A DNA stretch of 10,351 bases from a virus (taxonomy: Duplodnaviria; Heunggongvirae; Uroviricota; Caudoviricetes): IMG/VR virus record IMGVR_UViG_2778261165_000022, positions 1 through 10,351 of that record; one strand, written 5' to 3'. The notes under the pieces are model-generated. The model was not told the origin of the DNA. It did not search any database and worked only from the letters and a program-made list of their open reading frames with translations. Of this stretch, positions 1,369-10,351 are shown piece after piece. The position numbers and the translations under genes were made by a program. Every line of letters starts with the position of its first letter. Position 1 is the stretch's first letter.

Positions 1369-1444
1369 GCCGATATAGCTCAGTTGGTAGAGCAGCGCAT
1401 TCGTAATGCGAAGGTCGTAGGTTCGACTCCTATTATCGGCACCA
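1369..1444 (+). tRNA. thrW: tRNA-Thr (anticodon CGU), thrW-like
   Basis: 76 nt GCCGATATAGCTCAGTTGGTAGAGCAGCGCATTCGTAATGCGAAGGTCGTAGGTTCGACTCCTATTATCGGCACCA folds as a cloverleaf: acceptor stem GCCGATA/TATCGGC, D stem GCTC/GAGC, anticodon loop TTCGTAA (U33, CGT at 34-36, A37), T loop TTCGACT, discriminator A and encoded CCA. Sits directly downstream of proA, as thrW does in E. coli. Confidence 0.93.
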
Positions 1445-1460
1445 TTAAAATCAAGTAGTT
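1400..1460. other. probable prophage attL / integration junction at the tRNA 3' end
   Basis: The integrase stop codon (1459..1461) is 15 bp from the tRNA 3' end. tRNA-targeting integrases recombine within the 3' part of the tRNA and regenerate it. The second junction (attR) is outside the window, so core boundaries are not determinable. Confidence 0.4.
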
Positions 1461-2619
1461 ACCCCATATTTAAATACACCACGTTCTCCTCTTGTGCCGT
1501 ATTTGTGCCATTGCGACTTATAATCGCATCGATTTTGCTTGCGTGCTCGGTGAGATGCCCGGCTGAAAGGTGGGCGTATCTTTGAACCATTTCGAGAGTT
1601 TCCCATCCTCCCATCTCTTTAAGTGCAAGAAGAGAGACACCGGACTGAACCAGCCAGCTTGCCCAGGTATGCCTCAGATCATGGAAGCGGAAGTTACTAA
1701 TGCCTGCCCGCTTTAACGCTCCCTTCCATGCCTTGTTGCTGTCGGTTCTCATCTTCCTTACCGCTGCTGTTTTTGTTCCGTCGCTTCGGTAGGCAGGTTT
1801 GGTGTGGACAAATACCCATCTCTTATGGAGCCCCTGCTGTTTTCTTAATATCTGGCATGCGGTTTCGTTAAGAGGAACTCCGATCGCATTGCCAGCTTTT
1901 GTTTCATCAGGGTGTATCCATGCCATTTTCTTATCCAGATCGACCTGTGACCACTCAAGGTCTGTAACGTTGGAACGGCGAAGGCCTGTCGTGATTGCAA
2001 ACATGACCACAGGGAAGAAGTGAGGAGCAATTTCTGCAAACAGGCGCTTCGATTCCTCCTCTGTAAGCCATCTGATGCGTCCATTCTTAACGCGTGGTGT
2101 TGATATTTTGGGTGCCCTGTCAAGCCATCCCCATTCAACAGCCATATTGAGAATGGCGCGAAGTATTGCCAGATGCCTCGTCTTCGTTCCTTTGCTTGCA
2201 AGCTTTGGTTTATACTCCGGCACCGGATTGCCAAGTCGCAAACACCTGTCCCGGCTCATCTCCCAGTTCAGGCGATGGCGGCGGTTTTCCATCCCATCTA
2301 CCGCCTCCATTATTTTTTCTGTTGTTATGTCAGAGAGAATGGCTTCTCTGAAGTGCAACATCCAGAACGATATAATGCTCTTGTCATCATCAATGGACTT
2401 CTTATCCGATTTCTCACGCAGCCACCGTATGCAGGCTTCCTTGAATAGCTTTTTCGGTGATTCCCCGAGATTTTTTACTCTCCACGCTTCTGCTTTCAGA
2501 CGATCGTGAAGTTCTTGCGCTTGCCTTTTGTCCGATGTTTCAAGAGAGCGTCTAACTCTTGATCCATCTGGCGCGACGAAATCGCAGTGCCACGTGCCAC
2601 CGCGTAGTTTGATTGACAT
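1459..2619 (-). CDS. int: phage integrase, tyrosine recombinase (P22/lambda-like)
   Basis: 386-aa ORF with ATG at 2619 preceded by AGGAGG. C-terminal catalytic signature HDLRHTWASW ... VQRYAHL (His-x-x-Arg and catalytic Tyr). Placement next to a tRNA gene with xis overlapping upstream. Confidence 0.93.
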   Translation of the reverse strand: MSIKLRGGTWHCDFVAPDGSRVRRSLETSDKRQAQELHDRLKAEAWRVKNLGESPKKLFKEACIRWLREKSDKKSIDDDKSIISFWMLHFREAILSDITTEKIMEAVDGMENRRHRLNWEMSRDRCLRLGNPVPEYKPKLASKGTKTRHLAILRAILNMAVEWGWLDRAPKISTPRVKNGRIRWLTEEESKRLFAEIAPHFFPVVMFAITTGLRRSNVTDLEWSQVDLDKKMAWIHPDETKAGNAIGVPLNETACQILRKQQGLHKRWVFVHTKPAYRSDGTKTAAVRKMRTDSNKAWKGALKRAGISNFRFHDLRHTWASWLVQSGVSLLALKEMGGWETLEMVQRYAHLSAGHLTEHASKIDAIISRNGTNTAQEENVVYLNMG

Positions 2620-3514: not shown

Positions 3515-4138
3515 TTAAAATTCGAATTGTCTCGCCCGAAGGCTTTTTAACATTGGTCTTGCCCGTTCGAAAATGGCGCTTGTCTGGTCAATTCGTGTTG
3601 CCTCCCTGAGCAATGCGTCTCTGTTTTTCGTCACCGTGTAGAAAGTCTCAAACGCGATGTCATACAGCTTGCTCGCGTATGATGAGTTCAGTTCCTTCAA
3701 TATCGGATACAGGCGTTTGCTGATGTCCTGTGCTTTCTCCATCTGTACCTGCATGTAGCAGAGGAGGATGATTTCCTCGTCTGTGAATTGCTGCGCTGGT
3801 TGCATGCTGCGAAGTTTCTTTTCACACTCGATGAAGTATCGGCGTATCTGGCGACCTTTTTCGTTACGCTCGACCATTGCCAGCTCTTTGGCTGTGTCGA
3901 GGGTGAGGTGATAGTCTTTGCTACGGCGATCGCCTCCTCGACCTTTGATTTCCCTATTTGGGGAAACCAAAATATAGTCCTGATTTTCAACGAATCCATA
4001 TTCAGCAATGCGTTCTGTAATCCACGATGCAAAGCGTTTACCTACCCCAAGAAAAGTATGTAAATCTCGAGCATTAACGAGAAGAGTGATTTCGTTGGCG
4101 ATAGTGCCGTTGAATACGGGGATGAGTTGACTGGTCAT
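3515..4138 (-). CDS. AntA/AntB-like antirepressor-domain protein
   Basis: 207-aa ORF, ATG at 4138 preceded by AAAGGA. The N-terminal segment ARDLHTFLGVGKRFASWITERIAEYGFVENQDY resembles the AntA/AntB antirepressor N-terminal domain as I recall it. The C-terminal half is unassigned. Confidence 0.6.
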   Translation of the reverse strand: MTSQLIPVFNGTIANEITLLVNARDLHTFLGVGKRFASWITERIAEYGFVENQDYILVSPNREIKGRGGDRRSKDYHLTLDTAKELAMVERNEKGRQIRRYFIECEKKLRSMQPAQQFTDEEIILLCYMQVQMEKAQDISKRLYPILKELNSSYASKLYDIAFETFYTVTKNRDALLREATRIDQTSAIFERARPMLKSLRARQFEF

Positions 4139-5206: not shown

Positions 5207-5301
5207 GTATTCTGTCCTTTTCAGATAAAAGAAATCCCCGCGAGTGCGAGGATTGTTATTCATTGCCGATATTCACCTTTATCGCGAACACCTTTACCGG
5301 T

Positions 5302-5544
5302 TTATCTCCTTTGCATGGCGCGTAATTTTTTCAGATGGTTCTCCTGCTCTGTTTCAGCCAGAATTTGTCGGTATTCCTGGTGATCGATCCGTTCAAACAG
5401 TTCATTAAAATCGTTTATTTTTACCGACTGTGTTCGCCCATCCATTCTTCTGTACAACACAGTGTTGTTTATGCAGCGAAGAATTTTTATCGGGTAGCCG
5501 GCGCTATCGGTGTATATCTGACCACGTTGAATCAGAGCGAACAT
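5302..5544 (-). CDS. hypothetical small phage protein (80 aa)
   Basis: The track ORF begins with a TTG at 5598. The first ATG (MFALIQRGQIYTDSAG...) at 5544 has GGGGATAAAGGA upstream. No family recognised. Confidence 0.45.
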   Translation of the reverse strand: MFALIQRGQIYTDSAGYPIKILRCINNTVLYRRMDGRTQSVKINDFNELFERIDHQEYRQILAETEQENHLKKLRAMQRR

Positions 5545-5618
5545 TCCTTTATCCCCAGCGGAAAAGCGAATACAGAATAAATGCCACCGCGATTGCAACT
5601 CCTACAGCGGTGAATGCT

Positions 5619-6281
5619 TCAGGCCAATTCATCATTCACTCCCTGCGGCGGTTCTGGTAGCAGCATCCAGTACAAGGCGTTCCCTAACCACGATAAAGTG
5701 CCGTCGCTCAACTCCACGTATTCCCCTTGTACCTGTCCTGCCATATACTCGCCGTGCTTTGAATAAATTAAAACCCAATCGTCTTGAGCGGGAATTCGCT
5801 CACTACAGCTTATCCAACCATCCGGAATTACCGGAGAGTTGGTTGACGTTTCCGAGGTTTCCCGAAAATTATTGGTTGACGAATCCTTATTTTCCCGAAA
5901 GTTTCCAGCCTGAAGCATTGCGGCGCGGCAGGCGTTCCAGCCTCTCACCTCTGCAATAGCGGCAACAGCATCAACCGCGTACATGCTAAGAGGATTAGGC
6001 ATTGGTTTTTCTTCCGGTACTACTGGAACGGGTGGAGCGGCGTAGACTTCAATAATCCCATTATCAATAGGCCATTCTCCATCCTTGAGGTAGTCACTTG
6101 TGCCGTCAACTTTCTGTTCTGCAATGTGGAATGCACCTATTGGTTTTGCTTCCAGCGATACCAGTGCAATTCGTGCCAGTTCCTCCGCTTCTTCTGCTGG
6201 CAGTACAACGTTGCTACCCGGTCCGTATGTTTCGCGCCACTGCTTGATTGTCAGCAGTCGCTCTTTGGTTATAGTGGTCAT
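5619..6281 (-). CDS. DUF551-domain phage protein
   Basis: 220-aa ORF. C-terminal IPDGWISCSERIPAQDDWVLIYSKHGEYMAGQVQ...LSWLGNALYWMLLPEPP resembles the DUF551 domain common in lambdoid prophages. Its ATG overlaps the upstream gene's stop (ATGA), implying translational coupling. Confidence 0.7.
   Translation of the reverse strand: MTTITKERLLTIKQWRETYGPGSNVVLPAEEAEELARIALVSLEAKPIGAFHIAEQKVDGTSDYLKDGEWPIDNGIIEVYAAPPVPVVPEEKPMPNPLSMYAVDAVAAIAEVRGWNACRAAMLQAGNFRENKDSSTNNFRETSETSTNSPVIPDGWISCSERIPAQDDWVLIYSKHGEYMAGQVQGEYVELSDGTLSWLGNALYWMLLPEPPQGVNDELA
5839..5901. repeat. 33-bp imperfect tandem direct repeat inside the DUF551 CDS
   Basis: TTGGTTGACGTTTCCGAGGTTTCCCGAAAA and TTGGTTGACGAATCCTTATTTTCCCGAAAG, about 23/30 identical and 33 bp apart. 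Encodes the 11-aa repeat NFRENKDSSTN / NFRETSETSTN in the linker before the DUF551 domain. Confidence 0.6.
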
Positions 6282-6487
6282 TTGTTAATCCTCAAAACTT
6301 TATGCCCGGGCGCAAAAGCACGCGTTTTGTCTTTGCTTATTCGCCAGCCATCCTTGCGCGCCTCTTTTGCACAGCCAGCCCATGACGTACCGATATATTC
6401 ACCGAAGTCTGGCGTTTGATATTTACCATTTGTACACTGGCGACAATCACAGTAGAGATGCATGGTGTAACTTGCGGCAATAGCCAT
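6278..6487 (-). CDS. small Cys-rich protein (69 aa), possible zinc-binding
   Basis: Track ORF 6278..6649 begins with a TTG. The in-frame ATG at 6487 (MAIAASYTMHLYCDCRQCTNGKYQ...) has AAGGAG 7 nt upstream and lies 1 nt after the Ea22-like stop. Cys at positions 13, 15, 18 and 39. Confidence 0.5.
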   Translation of the reverse strand: MAIAASYTMHLYCDCRQCTNGKYQTPDFGEYIGTSWAGCAKEARKDGWRISKDKTRAFAPGHKVLRINK

Positions 6488-6488
6488 A

Positions 6489-7259
6489 TCACTCTCCTTT
6501 GATGCGAATACCAGCAGCGCGCTCGGCTTCACTTTGTTCCCAAAACCACTTGTGAAGCGCCATAAGCTTTTCGTCAATCGGTGCATATTTGCGATTAAAG
6601 TAGGCCTGAGCATCTTTCTCAGATTCGTCCGGTAATTCGCCAGGGCCAAACAGTGTGTTATAAATCCATGCTAGTCCGCTCTTAGCGTCGCCAGTTGCCT
6701 GCCATTCGATAATGGCAGCCTGCATGACCAGAATGTTTTTCCCGATTAATAGGTCCAGTTCTTTGTACCGGTTGCGGATGTATGCATTCTCGCTTTGTAA
6801 TTTTGCGTTGCGCTTTTCTGAGGCTTCAAGTAACGCCTGCTTATCGCGTAGCGCTTCTTCCAGTTCAGCAACATGGCATTCACTATCAATAAGGTTGTTC
6901 TCTGCTGCTTCAAGCTCAACACGCAGCTTCCCAACCGTAAGCGCAATCTCCTCGTTCTCCTGGTCGCGGCGTTTGATGTATTGCTGGTTTCTTTCCCGTT
7001 CATCCAGCAGGGCCAGCGCAACATTTGGATTAAAAGCAGCAATAAATTCAGCGTTTGCATAAGCCTGAACATCTGTTTCAACTAGGCAGTTAACATGACA
7101 TTCCGCAATCACACCACCGGGTTCTCCTTTCCATTTTTGGCAAACAAAAACTCCTGTTAAATTGCCGTGCTGGTTAACAGATGTATGCCCTACGATGTAG
7201 CTTCCTTTAGTTGCTTTCTCTGCCTTTTCACGCAGTGCCTGATAATCAATCTTGCTCAC
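6489..7259 (-). CDS. Ead/Ea22-like family protein (coiled-coil)
   Basis: 256-aa ORF, GTG start with AGGAGG 6 nt upstream. N-terminal [14 protein letters not shown] and a long Glu/Leu/Arg-rich central helix resemble the Ead/Ea22-like proteins of lambdoid prophages as I recall them. Confidence 0.65.
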
Positions 7260-7423
7260 TGGTTGCCTCCTTTGCGCAACATCGCATTCAGATATTTGTT
7301 GTCATTAACAGAACCGAAACTATTTCCCTTAAGCAATTCCTCTCTCGATGGCATTGGCTTTACGCGTTGGCGAATAATCATTTCTGCTGGAAGAATGCCG
7401 GGATTGTATGCAAGTCCTCTCAT
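7256..7423 (-). CDS. hypothetical small protein (55 aa)
   Basis: Hand-translated: [58 protein letters not shown] preceded by AGAGGA. Its stop overlaps the Ea22-like GTG start (GTGA). Coordinates approximate. Confidence 0.4.
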
Positions 7424-7439
7424 GGTAAATTCCTCTTTG

Positions 7440-7754
7440 TTAATTTATTCGTATGCCTTCTCTTTCTTCATCGAGTTTTTTTAGCTTGTATCGCATAGCT
7501 CTTACTGAATAAATTGAGCGGCAGGTTGCAATTGCTATTTCTTCTGCGGAGAACTTACCGAAAAGTGATACTTCGGCTCTTGTCCAGCGTCTTCCACGAA
7601 GTCGGCTAACAATGTCAGCGCCAATCCTTGTTGCTTTCGCCATTACTGCTTTCTCAGTCCTTTCCAGTTTTTCAGCGATAACTTCAACTGGCATTGTTGC
7701 CGCTACTTCGCGCAAGAAATCTACTTCCCATTTCTCCCAAGGAGTCTTTTTCAT
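7440..7754 (-). CDS. hypothetical protein (104 aa) with two internal HTH-like repeats
   Basis: Track ORF with ATG at 7754. Two similar segments, [32 protein letters not shown] and [32 protein letters not shown], share a W-x-x-E-x-x-L...IA pattern reminiscent of GcrA-type helix-turn-helix repeats. Confidence 0.5.
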
Positions 7755-7765
7755 AGGCGATACCG

Positions 7766-8248
7766 TTATTTGATAAGAAGTGAAGGTTTCCCAACCTTGA
7801 GTTGAGCGCCTGGGATATTTATTCCTGCTTTTAGTTGGTGCTTGATTGCCAACTTGTCGGCTTTAATTGTCGTTTCAAACTCAACGTATTCAGGAGGAAG
7901 GGCGCTTGAGTCGATGATTTCTACAGTTTCTGACGGTTTGCGGATTGTTACCTGGTGAATACCTGCTCGAATCTTTTTCTTGCCAACCATTTCAAGCGAT
8001 GACGCTATATATGATTTGATGCTGTCAATCTTATTTTGAATTACTGCGGCTCGCTCATTCAGCGACTTTGCCTCTTCCTTGAGGCGTTCAGCATAACCAG
8101 ATTCATTTTTAATAATGGCGAGAAGTTGCTCTATTTTATCGGTAAATTCTCCTTCCATGCCTTCTATTGTGTCAGCAATCATCTCTGGATCTAAATCTGA
8201 ATCCATCAATTTTGCGTATTCATTGGCTATTTCATATAGTTTGCTCAC
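7766..8248 (-). CDS. Siphovirus Gp157-like protein
   Basis: Track ORF 7766..8254 begins with a TTG. The GTG at 8248 has GGAGG 6 nt upstream. Sequence pattern (LYEIANEY..., DTIEGMEGEF, GKKKI, VTIRKPSETVEIID, LPPEYVEF, AIKHQLKAG, PGAQL) matches my recollection of the Gp157 family that often accompanies RecT. Confidence 0.65.
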   Translation of the reverse strand: MSKLYEIANEYAKLMDSDLDPEMIADTIEGMEGEFTDKIEQLLAIIKNESGYAERLKEEAKSLNERAAVIQNKIDSIKSYIASSLEMVGKKKIRAGIHQVTIRKPSETVEIIDSSALPPEYVEFETTIKADKLAIKHQLKAGINIPGAQLKVGKPSLLIK

Positions 8249-9143
8249 TGGCAACCTCCAGTTTCGCTTTGCATTCTATGTAAATGGCTTGTACGTTCTG
8301 CTGTAATTTCATTCCAGATGTTAGGCGATATGCTTCTGCAAAATATCGCTTCAAATCATCCATGTTTTCTGCCTGAGCCATTTCATCGCAAAGAAGTTGT
8401 ACTTTATCCATTATTTCCTGCTGGCGTTTCCGTTCATCTTCGCGGATATCTTCCTCTGATTTGTGCGGCATAACTGGTTCAGTCCACACACCTTCTTCTT
8501 CGTTTAGTACGTGAATAGCACTATCAAGACGTGATGCCTTAGGCCAATACTTGCTTGCACGCTTTACGACCGTCTTTCGCGCCATCTCATTCCAGTGATT
8601 TACCCATGGTCCTTTATCGCTGAATGCTGCCTTGCTTGTTTTCCTTACAGCCTCAATTTCAGCCAGACTCATCTCTTCCGTTAGATAATCACCTGCTGGC
8701 GTCTTAACTGTGCAGTAAACGCCAACGATATCACCACGATCACCGAAGGCGTTGTATTTATGGGTTGGTGCTTTATCAAGCCCGTTTGACTCATAGGTAT
8801 CGTTAGCATGAACAAGTTTTGCCTGACCCCATGAGATAACACCAGACTCCATTGCAATATGGAGCAATCCCATATAACTGATATCAAGGCAAACCATGCC
8901 GTCGCGCGGAACCAGATAAGCCAGTTTGCTGGCCGGGTTTAAGGTGATGCCGATCGCCGCAACATTGATGATGGCGTTCTGTGCGCTGGTTGGATTTGCC
9001 AGTGCCGTTTTAGCCAGGTAATCGTTTTTCTGGAAATACTGAATTGCAAACTGGCTTTCCTTAGCCCATGTCACCGTCTGTTCAGTCAATGCTCCGCAGA
9101 ATAACTGCTCTTGCTGTTTAACGAATTCAACGATATTGCTCAT
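8232..9143 (-). CDS. recT: RecT-family single-strand annealing recombinase
   Basis: 303-aa ORF, ATG at 9143 with GGAG 8 nt upstream. The motif GPWVNHWNEMARKTVVKRASKYWP closely parallels GPWVTHWEEMAKKTAIRRLFKYLP of Rac RecT. ATGA overlap with the upstream gene. Confidence 0.85.
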   Translation of the reverse strand: MSNIVEFVKQQEQLFCGALTEQTVTWAKESQFAIQYFQKNDYLAKTALANPTSAQNAIINVAAIGITLNPASKLAYLVPRDGMVCLDISYMGLLHIAMESGVISWGQAKLVHANDTYESNGLDKAPTHKYNAFGDRGDIVGVYCTVKTPAGDYLTEEMSLAEIEAVRKTSKAAFSDKGPWVNHWNEMARKTVVKRASKYWPKASRLDSAIHVLNEEEGVWTEPVMPHKSEEDIREDERKRQQEIMDKVQLLCDEMAQAENMDDLKRYFAEAYRLTSGMKLQQNVQAIYIECKAKLEVASEQTI

Positions 9144-9451
9144 GCAGCTTCTCCAAAAATGTGTCTGCGTTTGAATATTGCGAAGGCATATTCAGCCTTA
9201 ACTCTTTCGGTTATTGCATCCCAGAACCATTCAGCGGCTTTTTCCTGATAGTTACAATCATCATCTTCCAGCCAGTCGATAGCATCCTTAGTATGTTCAT
9301 CTGGTTTATATGAGCGAAGCATTTCGCTTATTGGGTCGCAACGTTTGCAGAGGCGATCAACTTCACTGTTGATTCGTTCGTAATCTTCATCAGTAAAACT
9401 TGCGATAATTTGCGATATTTCACGCTTATCATTCAGAGTCAGAATCATCAT
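9140..9451 (-). CDS. hypothetical acidic phage protein (103 aa)
   Basis: Track ORF with tandem ATG ATG at 9451 and GGAGA upstream. Rich in Asp/Glu. Translationally coupled to recT. Confidence 0.55.
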   Translation of the reverse strand: MMILTLNDKREISQIIASFTDEDYERINSEVDRLCKRCDPISEMLRSYKPDEHTKDAIDWLEDDDCNYQEKAAEWFWDAITERVKAEYAFAIFKRRHIFGEAA

Positions 9452-9532
9452 CTTTCTCCTGTTCTTTGTGCTGATTGAGCATTTTGTTCATCTGACGAAT
9501 GAATTCTTCGTCTGACCAGTTATCTGTAAAAC

Positions 9533-9685
9533 TCATTTCCTGCGATACCACGGAAGGTTGATAGCTGATTTCATCGCTTTATTTGCTTCAAGCCACATTT
9601 TTGAATCACCAATAAATCTGGCTATTACTGCTTTGTTTTGTGCAGCACGAAGCATCTGGTGATTGATGGCTATTTCATTGCGCAT
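9533..9685 (-). CDS. hypothetical small protein (50 aa)
   Basis: Hand-translated: MRNEIAINHQMLRAAQNKAVIARFIGDSKMWLEANKAMKSAINLPWYRRK. ATG preceded by GGAGG at 5 nt. Coordinates approximate. Confidence 0.4.
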   Translation of the reverse strand: MRNEIAINHQMLRAAQNKAVIARFIGDSKMWLEANKAMKSAINLPWYRRK

Positions 9686-9804
9686 AACGCCTCCAGTTGT
9701 TTCTTTGCTGCTCTGATTAATTGTTTAACTCGGCGTGATAATTCAGATTCGTGCGGGTAGAAAGCGGACATGACGCCGCTACCCGCGAGCTGAAAGTGCA
9801 TCAT
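9670..9804 (-). CDS. hypothetical small protein (44 aa)
   Basis: Track ORF 9670..9855. The in-frame ATG at 9804 (MMHFQLAGSG...) has AAGGAG about 7 nt upstream. 3' end overlaps the next ORF's start by 16 nt. Confidence 0.4.
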   Translation of the reverse strand: MMHFQLAGSGVMSAFYPHESELSRRVKQLIRAAKKQLEALCAMK

Positions 9805-9887
9805 GGGTAACTCCTTATATTTGATTGCATAACGAAAACGCCTCAAGTGAAGCATTATTGGTATGCGGTAAAGCCGCGCTTGGCGGC

Positions 9888-10225
9888 TTATTTGAAGACT
9901 TCTATGAAATCAAGAACTGATGATATTTCGTGGTTGAATGATTTTCTTTTATATCTTTCTATCGCAGAATCTACCTGGTGTTTATAGTCATCGTCGTTTG
10001 AGTATTTAACGAAGCATTCTATTGTCTCAGGCGTTACAGCCATAAGGCTCCACCAACCTTCATCAGATTGATATTCAAATCCCATGCTTTCAAGCCATCC
10101 AGCATATTTCCCTCCAGCATCTTGCCAGTGAGTCTTTTCTGCAAGAAAACTGTTAACCGTCATATGTGCATCAAGGCATTTATCCAACTGTTTACCATTA
10201 AGCAGCCATGCGCTGACAGTTGCAC
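9888..10225 (-). pseudogene. prophage early gene, probably truncated at its 5' end by IS2
   Basis: Track ORF 9888..10253 begins with a TTG inside the IS2 terminal repeat. The first native ATG (MTVNSF..., 10163) has no Shine-Dalgarno. The frame stays open up to the IS2 boundary, consistent with loss of the true N-terminus. Confidence 0.45.
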
Positions 10226-10351
10226 TAGACTGGCCCCATGAATCTCCAGACAACCAATATCACTTAAATAAGTGATAGTCTTAATACTAGTTTTTAGACT
10301 AGTCATTGGAGAGCAGATGATTGATGTCTTAGGACCGGAGAAACGCAGACG
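10226..10351 (+). mobile_element. IS2 (IS3 family) left end, partial; continues beyond the window
   Basis: TAGACTGGCCCC.TGAATCTCCAGACAACCAATATCACTTAAATAAGTGATAGTCTTAATACTAGTTTTTAGACTAGTCATTGGAG matches the IS2 left terminal region as I remember it, followed by the insC start. Confidence 0.8.
10317..10351 (+). CDS. insC: IS2 OrfA transposase (InsC), N-terminal 11 codons only
   Basis: ATG at 10317 preceded by GGAGAG. Translation MIDVLGPEKRR matches the InsC N-terminus (MIDVLGPEKRRRRTTQEK...) from memory. Confidence 0.75.
   Translation, partial: MIDVLGPEKRR

What the first reader, a model, noticed from the sequence alone, without database searches (positions are those of the whole stretch)
9888..10351. 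IS2 inserted in the prophage early-left operon
The window ends in the left terminus of IS2 with insC on the plus strand. The adjacent minus-strand prophage ORF runs open into the IS2 end with no credible native start, so IS2 probably split that gene and separated the recombination module, xis and int from their upstream early promoter. IS2 is known to be polar or activating depending on orientation, so the element may be rewiring or silencing this arm.
Basis: partly seen in the sequence, partly recalled or inferred. Interest (0 to 1): 0.5.

Follow-up and report, generated by a model that had tools for sequence, protein, structure and literature searches.

The report
IS2 insertion splitting a prophage gene
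The window ends in a copy of the common E. coli jumping gene IS2 that has landed inside a small prophage gene of unknown function; this is a real but ordinary kind of event.

Summary
Window 10226-10351 is the left end of an IS2 isoform: a 42-bp IRL from 10226 and the insC start at 10317 on the + strand. It is 126/126 identical to copies in many E. coli genomes and 123/126 identical to K-12 IS2A.

The window is the end of a draft contig that stops one base later, so the rest of the element cannot be seen in this genome. Two complete E. coli genomes (Z1323CEC0004/0002) carry the same junction on a 5.1-kb flank with one mismatch. There the element is a complete 1,331-bp IS2 flanked by a 5-bp duplication (TGCAC). 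Removing it restores a 138-aa ORF.

The gene's native start lies 79 nt beyond the insertion point and has a GGAGG ribosome-binding site. Full-length homologues (phrog_8967, and 115 phage records) show that the internal ATG at 10163 is not the start.

IS2 lies antisense to the leftward operon, with its IRL next to cIII-kil-recT. No outward promoter is apparent there, so activation is unlikely. Rho-dependent polarity on un-antiterminated transcripts is plausible but untested, and N-type antitermination would probably override it.

This is an ordinary IS insertion in a prophage and is already annotated in RefSeq. Interest is low.

The parts
10226..10351 (+). Left end of an IS2 isoform (first 126 of 1,331 bp). 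It holds the 42-bp IRL at 10226-10267, the region of the inward promoter PIRL, and the first 11 codons of insC/orfA from the ATG at 10317.
   Evidence: 100% over 126 nt to many E. coli IS2 copies. 123/126 to K-12 IS2A, and identical to the full 1,331-bp copy in L001. IRL length and PIRL position are from PMC3299598.
10221..10225 (.). IRL-side copy of the 5-bp target-site duplication TGCAC.
   Evidence: In L001, TGCAC directly flanks both ends of the IS (12822-12826 and 14158-14162). It occurs once at the empty site in strain C4, L002 6822-6826.
9888..10225 (-). 3' remnant (338 nt: codon 27 in part, through the stop) of a 138-aa lambdoid early-left gene of unknown function (phrog_8967). The first 79 nt and the ribosome-binding site are displaced to the far side of IS2.
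   Evidence: The intact 417-nt homologue is in strain C4. phrog_8967 match over 1-138/138, E = 2.7e-87. Reconstruction from L001 gives a 138-aa ORF that is 136/138 identical to C4. No Pfam, NCBIfam, PADLOC or PDB match.
9888..10253 (-). Chimeric 121-aa ORF. It starts at a TTG inside the IS2 IRL, so its first 9 codons are IS-derived. RefSeq annotates it as a hypothetical protein (WP_201794216.1). It is most likely an annotation artefact.
   Evidence: ORF list, annotation in L001. No Shine-Dalgarno-like sequence upstream of the TTG (read). Only 3 contigs in the gene-position index carry this protein.
9670..9804 (-). cIII gene, the first intact gene downstream of the insertion in the leftward operon.
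   Evidence: Pfam PF08134 cIII, E = 4.6e-30. Annotated CDS in L001 at 12271-12405.
9533..9685 (-). kil gene (host cell-division inhibitor).
   Evidence: Pfam PF06301 Lambda_Kil, E = 1.7e-20. phrog_2055. Annotated as kil.
8232..9143 (-). recT recombinase gene (recombination module downstream of the insertion).
   Evidence: Pfam PF03837 RecT, E = 3.3e-32. Annotated as recombinase RecT.
1459..2619 (-). Tyrosine integrase at the distal end of the leftward arm, next to tRNA-Thr(CGT) at 1369-1444 and proA at 1-1254.
   Evidence: Pfam PF00589, E = 1.3e-35. tRNA from ARAGORN. proA annotation in related genomes.

Best explanation
A complete 1,331-bp IS2 isoform transposed by the normal IS3-family copy-and-paste route into codon 27 of a 138-aa gene of unknown function. 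That gene lies in the leftward (pL-type) early operon of a lambdoid prophage, between the N-like antiterminator region and cIII-kil-recT. The insertion duplicated the 5-bp target TGCAC.

The gene is inactivated. Its promoter-proximal 79 nt and ribosome-binding site are now 1.3 kb away, and translation from the native start would end after 56 residues, 28 codons into the IS.

IS2 is oriented with insCD antisense to the operon and with its IRL abutting the downstream genes. It therefore offers no known outward promoter towards cIII/kil/recT/xis/int.

The inferred regulatory effect is as follows. Ordinary leftward transcripts must now cross about 1.7 kb of untranslated, C-rich RNA, so they should suffer Rho-dependent polarity. 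N-antiterminated transcripts made after induction should largely read through. The expected net effect is loss of one accessory gene and at most a dampening of the arm, not a rewiring of it.

The window stops where it does only because the short-read assembly broke in the IS2 repeat.
For: Shown:
- IS2 identity of the end.
- The identical junction and a 5,132-bp flank with 1 mismatch in complete genomes Z1323CEC0004/0002.
- There the IS is 1,331 bp, 95.5% identical to K-12 IS2A with no gaps, with an identical InsC and the A6G slippery site. InsC exceeds the NCBIfam IS2 TnpA cut-off.
- 5-bp TSD TGCAC, against a single copy in the empty site of strain C4.
- Removing the IS and one TGCAC copy restores a 138-aa ORF that is 136/138 identical to C4.
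- Full-length family phrog_8967 and phage homologues covering residues 1-137.
- 35 complete E. coli genomes have the uninterrupted site; 2 have the IS.
- Gene order beyond the IS in L001 runs 156-aa gene, N-like gene, repressor/cro.
- The window equals a contig end.
- The 56-aa truncated product, 1,666 untranslated nt to the cIII start, and antisense IS RNA with 387 C against 315 G.
- No promoter-like site reading out of the IRL on the minus strand. Total promoter-like hits are at chance level, 3 against 2.9 expected.

From the literature: PIRL faces inward at the IRL, and Pjunc is assembled when IRR and IRL are abutted (PMC3299598).

From my own knowledge: the outward -35 of Pjunc lies in the IRR. 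N-modified pL transcription overrides the polarity of IS insertions (Adhya, Gottesman and de Crombrugghe 1974 PNAS 71:2534; reference seen, paper not held).
Against: For this particular genome, nothing beyond 126 nt of the IS is visible. Completeness of the IS, the second TSD copy and the 5' gene fragment are inferred from sister genomes that differ from the window in the int-proximal half of the arm.

No expression data exist, so polarity and N read-through are inferences from classical lambda/gal work that I could not re-read here.

Whether this prophage has a working N-like antiterminator is unknown. In the sister genome the N-like gene is itself split by an IS10, in which case the arm would be silent for that reason and not because of IS2.
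Confidence: 0.88

Rival explanations
1. In this genome the IS2 end marks a rearrangement endpoint and not a simple insertion. Examples are an IS2-mediated adjacent deletion or inversion, or homologous recombination between two IS2 copies. The far side of the IS would then not be the rest of the prophage.
For: The source contig ends 127 nt into the IS, so the far side is unseen. This prophage has demonstrably been recombined: it diverges abruptly from the sister prophage at window 5220. E. coli genomes hold a median of 3 and up to 41 matches to this IS end, which gives ample substrates for recombination.
Against: The junction, the IS variant (126/126) and 5.1 kb of flank (1 mismatch) are the same as in two complete genomes, where the insertion is simple with a perfect 5-bp TSD and a restorable ORF. 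A contig break inside a multicopy IS is the expected behaviour of short-read assemblers and needs no rearrangement to explain it.
Confidence: 0.08
2. The IS2 insertion activates or rewires the downstream recombination/xis/int genes through an IS-borne or hybrid outward promoter at its left end.
For: IS2 has historically been reported to turn on neighbouring genes in one orientation (references to Glansdorff et al. 1981 and Hinton and Musso 1983 are listed). IS ends can evolve outward promoters (PMC12095673).
Against: Here the IRL, not the IRR, abuts the downstream genes, and insCD is antisense to them. The characterised IRL promoter PIRL faces inward. From my own knowledge, the outward-facing -35 used by Pjunc is in the IRR. 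The consensus scan finds no promoter-like site leaving the IRL on the minus strand, and hits overall are at chance level. From my own knowledge, not re-verified here, the antisense arrangement corresponds to the classical polar 'orientation I'.
Confidence: 0.04
3. The gene is not really interrupted. It naturally begins at the internal ATG (10163) or at the annotated TTG (10253), and IS2 landed in an upstream non-coding leader.
For: RefSeq annotates a 121-aa CDS from the TTG at 10253. An in-frame ATG exists at 10163.
Against: The TTG lies inside the IS2 IRL, so it cannot be native. Intact homologues are 138 aa with a GGAGG SD 6 nt before the upstream ATG. The PHROG profile is matched 1-138/138. 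Phage homologues only about 66% identical still align from residue 1.
Confidence: 0.01

Closest known systems
IS2 of E. coli K-12 (IS3 family, IS2 group; e.g. IS2A, insC1/insD1, NC_000913.3 381260-382590)
   Same: Both are 1,331 bp. The full sister copy is 95.5% identical in nucleotides with no indels. The InsC protein is identical. Both have the orfA/orfB arrangement with the A6G frameshift window, the same imperfect terminal repeats (TAGACTGG… / …CAAATCCA) and a 5-bp target duplication.
   Different: It is an isoform and not the K-12 sequence: 60 substitutions over the element, 3 of them in the 126 nt seen in the window. This variant is itself common: 1,386 records match the window's 126 nt at 99% or better.
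Classical IS2 insertions in transcription units read from lambda promoters (lambda r32 in the cII region; gal::IS2 polar mutations read from pL)
   Same: An IS2 sits inside a lambdoid early operon, where polarity would depend on whether the polymerase is N-modified. This comparison rests on my own knowledge plus the Adhya et al. 1974 reference listed.
   Different: Those are laboratory mutants with measured polarity. Here there is a natural prophage, a different target gene (phrog_8967, in the pL arm and not the pR arm) and no expression data.
IS-riddled cryptic lambdoid prophages of E. coli (IS insertions as part of prophage decay)
   Same: This is an IS insertion in a prophage accessory or regulatory gene. 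The sister prophage carries a second IS (IS10) that splits the N-like gene.
   Different: Whether the window's prophage is defective is unknown, because only its left arm is in the window.

Membership tests
IS2 (IS3 family insertion sequence) | Terminal sequence matches the IS2 IRL (42-bp imperfect inverted repeat beginning TAGACTGG, with a TA-3' terminus) | tested here: met
   Window 10226-10351 is 123/126 identical to K-12 IS2A from its first base and 126/126 identical to many other copies. IRL length is from PMC3299598.
IS2 (IS3 family insertion sequence) | About 1.3-kb element with an IRR at the other end | tested here: inconclusive
   Not visible in the window or its contig, which ends in the IS. 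Met in the sister genome with the identical junction: 1,331 bp ending …GGGGCAAATCCA.
IS2 (IS3 family insertion sequence) | orfA (InsC) and orfB (InsD) with a programmed -1 frameshift at A6G | tested here: inconclusive
   The window holds only the first 11 codons of insC, identical to K-12 InsC residues 1-11. In L001 InsC is 121/121 identical to K-12, A6G is present at IS position 409, the CDS is annotated as a programmed frameshift, and NCBIfam 'IS2 repressor TnpA' scores 276 bits against a cut-off of 229.
IS2 (IS3 family insertion sequence) | 5-bp direct target-site duplication flanking the element | tested here: inconclusive
   One copy (TGCAC, 10221-10225) is in the window; the second copy lies off the contig. 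In L001, TGCAC flanks both ends. It is single in the empty site of strain C4.
IS2 (IS3 family insertion sequence) | At least 95% nucleotide identity to the reference (the ISfinder isoform convention, from my own knowledge) | tested here: met
   97.6% over the 126 nt in the window. 95.5% over the full 1,331 bp of the sister copy.
Lambdoid early-left (pL) operon | Co-oriented genes in the order cIII, kil, recombination genes, xis and int, downstream of an N-type antiterminator and a repressor/cro switch | tested here: met
   cIII, kil, RecT, an excisionase-like HTH protein and the integrase are all on the minus strand of the window. The N-like gene, the S24 repressor, cro and cII lie beyond the IS in L001. 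The promoter itself was not mapped.

The most novel reading that the evidence does not exclude
The same IS2 insertion event, on a 5.1-kb flank with one mismatch, sits in two prophages with different integrases at different chromosomal sites: thrW/proA here and next to mdtA in Z1323CEC0004. The most novel reading not excluded is that the IS2-carrying phage stayed infectious, or at least recombinationally active, after the insertion. N-type antitermination would mask the IS's polarity, so IS2 would be riding between hosts as a passenger in a functional temperate phage instead of marking a dead prophage.
Probability: 0.2. Interest if true: 0.3.

Novelty: already known. Interest (0 to 1): 0.1.

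Why it matters
It matters little beyond annotation.

- A 138-aa early-left accessory gene (phrog_8967) is knocked out in this prophage.
- The 121-aa 'hypothetical protein' that RefSeq calls at this junction is a chimera starting inside the IS.
- The window's abrupt end is an assembly break in a repeat.

For anyone studying this prophage's inducibility, the IS2 is one more obstacle in the pL arm to consider when predicting whether recT, xis and int can be expressed. In the sister strain an IS10 in the N-like gene is a second such obstacle. IS insertions in prophages and IS2 polarity are textbook phenomena.

Tried and rejected
- I looked for the window's own genome among 5,426 complete E. coli genomes. 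It is not there: the best hit covers 66%.
- The source was found as a draft contig through the chimeric ORF, but the contig ends in the IS. The far side could not be read. The tools do not allow look-ups of proteins that are not encoded in the window, so the partner contig could not be fetched.
- I tried to assign a function to the interrupted gene. Pfam, NCBIfam, PADLOC and PDB sequence searches gave nothing, and only a PHROG of unknown function matched.
- I tried to document the classical orientation I/II convention for IS2 and the N-mediated relief of IS polarity. Six literature searches found only the reference entries. The key papers PMC388494 and PMC321474 are not held, so these points rest on my own knowledge.
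- The consensus promoter/terminator scan gave only chance-level hits. I did not treat the weak hybrid site at the IRR junction (L001 14169-14140) as meaningful.
- Rejected: a natural start at ATG 10163 or TTG 10253.
- Rejected: a solo IS end or fragment, because the sister copy is complete.

Full report
OBSERVATION. The last 126 bases of the window (10226-10351) are the left end of an IS2-type insertion sequence. A megablast of these bases against 5,426 complete E. coli genomes finds matches in 4,735 of them. Many are 126/126 identical (E = 1e-58), and the hits are annotated 'IS3 family transposase'. Against the K-12 reference copy IS2A (NC_000913.3 381260-382590) the window shows 3 mismatches in 126, aligned from the very first base of the element. 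The IRL starts TAGACTGGCCCC at 10226. The insC (orfA) ATG is at 10317 on the + strand.

THE FLANKING ORF. The minus-strand frame that stops at 9888 is open right through the junction. When window 9400-10351 is searched against E. coli genomes, two genomes match over the full length at 100%. Every other relative matches only query bases 1-826 or 88-826, that is, up to window 10225 and no further. In one of those relatives (strain C4, locus L002) the gene is annotated as 417 nt (138 aa). It continues 79 nt beyond the breakpoint to an ATG preceded by GGAGG.

The 138-aa protein matches PHROG family phrog_8967 over 1-138 of 138 profile positions, E = 2.7e-87. A tblastn against 50,697 phage records finds 115 homologues at about 66% identity that align from residue 1 to 137. 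The N-terminal 26 residues are therefore native. The internal ATG at 10163 is Met48 of the protein and is not its start. The TTG at 10253, which RefSeq uses for a 121-aa 'hypothetical protein', lies inside the IS2 IRL and cannot be native.

BEYOND THE WINDOW. The window's genome is not among the complete E. coli genomes; the best hit covers 66%. A look-up of the chimeric 121-aa ORF in the gene-position index found only three contigs. Two are the complete genomes Z1323CEC0004 and Z1323CEC0002 (chicken, South Korea). The third is draft contig NTPJ01000052.1 of GCA_002463735.1. The window is identical (0 mismatches) to the end of that contig, which stops one base after the window. The window therefore ends in IS2 because the assembly broke in a multicopy repeat.

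In Z1323CEC0004 (locus L001) the junction and 5,132 bp of flank are identical to the window except for one mismatch, so this is the same insertion event. There the element is 1,331 bp and 95.5% identical to IS2A with no gaps. Its InsC is identical in protein sequence, it carries the A6G frameshift window, and it ends …GGGGCAAATCCA. InsC scores 276 bits against NCBIfam 'IS2 repressor TnpA', whose cut-off is 229. These features match the published description of IS2: 1.3 kb, IS3 family, 41/42-bp IRR/IRL, orfA/orfB with A6G, and PIRL just inside the IRL (PMC3299598).

TGCAC flanks the element on both sides and occurs once in the empty site of strain C4. Deleting the IS plus one TGCAC in silico restores a 138-aa ORF that is 136/138 identical to the C4 protein. 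A search with the reconstructed empty site finds 35 complete genomes with the uninterrupted locus, against two with IS2. This is a simple, rare and fairly recent IS2 insertion into codon 27 of the gene.

CONTEXT. All downstream genes are on the minus strand: cIII (9670-9804), kil (9533-9685), a 102-aa gene, recT (8232-9143), Gp157-family, Ea22-like, DUF551, an AntA-type antirepressor, an excisionase-like HTH protein and a tyrosine integrase (1459-2619). The integrase is next to tRNA-Thr(CGT) (1369-1444) and proA. In L001 the far side of the IS holds, in order, the 5' gene fragment, a terminator-like hairpin, a 156-aa gene, an N-like antiterminator gene, two small genes, and then the S24-type repressor and cro.

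HOW IT LIKELY WORKS. The following is shown:
- The accessory gene is destroyed. Translation from its native start would run 28 codons into the IS and stop, giving a 56-aa product.
- The IS is antisense to the operon, with the IRL next to the downstream genes.

The following is inferred:
- A leftward transcript must cross 1,666 nt without a translated frame before reaching the cIII start, and the antisense IS RNA is C-rich (387 C against 315 G). These are the conditions under which Rho causes polarity.
- No convincing intrinsic terminator was found inside the IS on that strand.
- The terminator-like hairpin just upstream of the gene's own ribosome-binding site (L001 14282-14261) implies that this part of the arm already depends on N-type antitermination.
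- From my own knowledge of the classical work (Adhya, Gottesman and de Crombrugghe 1974; reference seen, paper not held), N-modified polymerase from pL ignores the polarity of IS insertions. After induction with a working N, the arm should therefore still be expressed.
- Activation is unlikely. The only characterised promoter in the IRL (PIRL) faces into the element. Pjunc forms when IRR and IRL are abutted, and from my own knowledge its outward -35 is contributed by the IRR, which here faces away from the recombination genes. The consensus scan finds nothing leaving the IRL on the minus strand, and its hits overall are at chance level (3 against 2.9 expected).
- From memory, this antisense arrangement is the classical polar 'orientation I'. 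I could not verify the convention in the held literature.

RIVALS.
(a) The IS2 end might mark a rearrangement endpoint in this particular genome. This cannot be excluded from a contig end, but the identity with the simple insertion in two complete genomes makes it unlikely.
(b) Activation through an outward promoter is disfavoured by the orientation.
(c) A natural internal start is refuted.

COMPARISON AND NOVELTY. The element is a member of IS2 (an isoform at 95.5%). The event is an ordinary IS insertion in a lambdoid prophage, of the same kind as many described in E. coli. It is already annotated in RefSeq genomes as 'IS3 family transposase, programmed frameshift'. Nothing about its anatomy is unusual.

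The only mildly interesting point is that the same insertion is found in two prophages whose int-proximal halves and chromosomal positions differ: thrW/proA here, next to mdtA in Z1323CEC0004, with divergence starting at window 5220. The IS2-bearing segment was therefore exchanged between prophages, or carried by a still-mobile phage, after the insertion.

VERDICT. The regulatory speculation is untested, the activating option is disfavoured, and silencing would be conditional on the absence of antitermination. Interest is low (0.1). Novelty: already known.

Noticed in passing
window 10351 (end); L004 = NTPJ01000052.1 of GCA_002463735.1: The window is the terminal 10.35 kb of a 33-kb draft contig that ends one base after the window, so the assembly broke inside the multicopy IS2. 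The abrupt end is an assembly artefact, not biology.
   Followed up: yes
window 5220 (breakpoint); window 5220-10351 = L001 7821-12952: There is a sharp mosaic boundary. To the right, 5,132 bp are identical but for one base to a prophage next to mdtA in E. coli Z1323CEC0004, including the IS2 junction. To the left the two prophages are unrelated or only about 95% alike and carry different integrases and attachment sites. The same IS2 event is therefore shared by two differently integrated prophages.
   Followed up: partly
L001 15116-16444 (beyond the window, sister genome): A second IS (IS10/ISVsa5-type, 1,329 bp, 9-bp duplication TGCTCTGCG) splits the N-like antiterminator gene. The 86-aa remnant matches only positions 74-170 of 176 in phrog_271. 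In that strain the left arm is probably silent because of this insertion. Whether the window's genome shares it is unknown.
   Followed up: partly
L001 14282-14261, minus strand (about 20 nt upstream of the interrupted gene's SD; beyond the window): A strong intrinsic-terminator-like hairpin (TTGCCCTCCAATGTGAGGGCAA followed by T7) lies between the 156-aa gene and the 138-aa gene. The surrounding stretch of about 85 bp matches more than 2,000 E. coli genomes, including O157:H7 prophages. It looks like a conserved tL-type terminator that would make the downstream arm dependent on antitermination.
   Followed up: no
window 9888-10225 (gene family phrog_8967): The interrupted gene has no Pfam, NCBIfam, PADLOC or PDB relative. 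It has full-length homologues at about 66% identity in 115 phage records, mostly 135-140-kb Escherichia myoviruses, one of them labelled Vequintavirinae. Sixteen records labelled 'Campylobacter phage' (143 kb) give the same hit, which is an odd host label.
   Followed up: no
window 9888-10253, minus strand: RefSeq calls a 121-aa 'hypothetical protein' (WP_201794216.1) whose TTG start and first 9 codons lie inside the IS2 inverted repeat. This is a chimeric ORF created by the insertion and is most likely an annotation artefact.
   Followed up: yes
window 1369-1444 (+) and 1459-2619 (-): tRNA-Thr(CGT) lies 14 nt from the end of a 386-aa tyrosine integrase gene, next to proA. This is the classic thrW attachment site used by P22-type phages (from my own knowledge). 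The partner att repeat is outside the window.
   Followed up: no
window 3515-4138, minus strand: An AntA/P22_AR-type antirepressor gene sits in the int-proximal part of the arm. It is in the stretch that is absent from the sister prophage L001.
   Followed up: no
window 9856-9837, minus strand (= L001 12457-12438): A weak terminator-like hairpin (8 pairs, 3 of them G-C, poor T tail) lies between the stop of the interrupted gene and cIII. This is at chance level in the scan.
   Followed up: no
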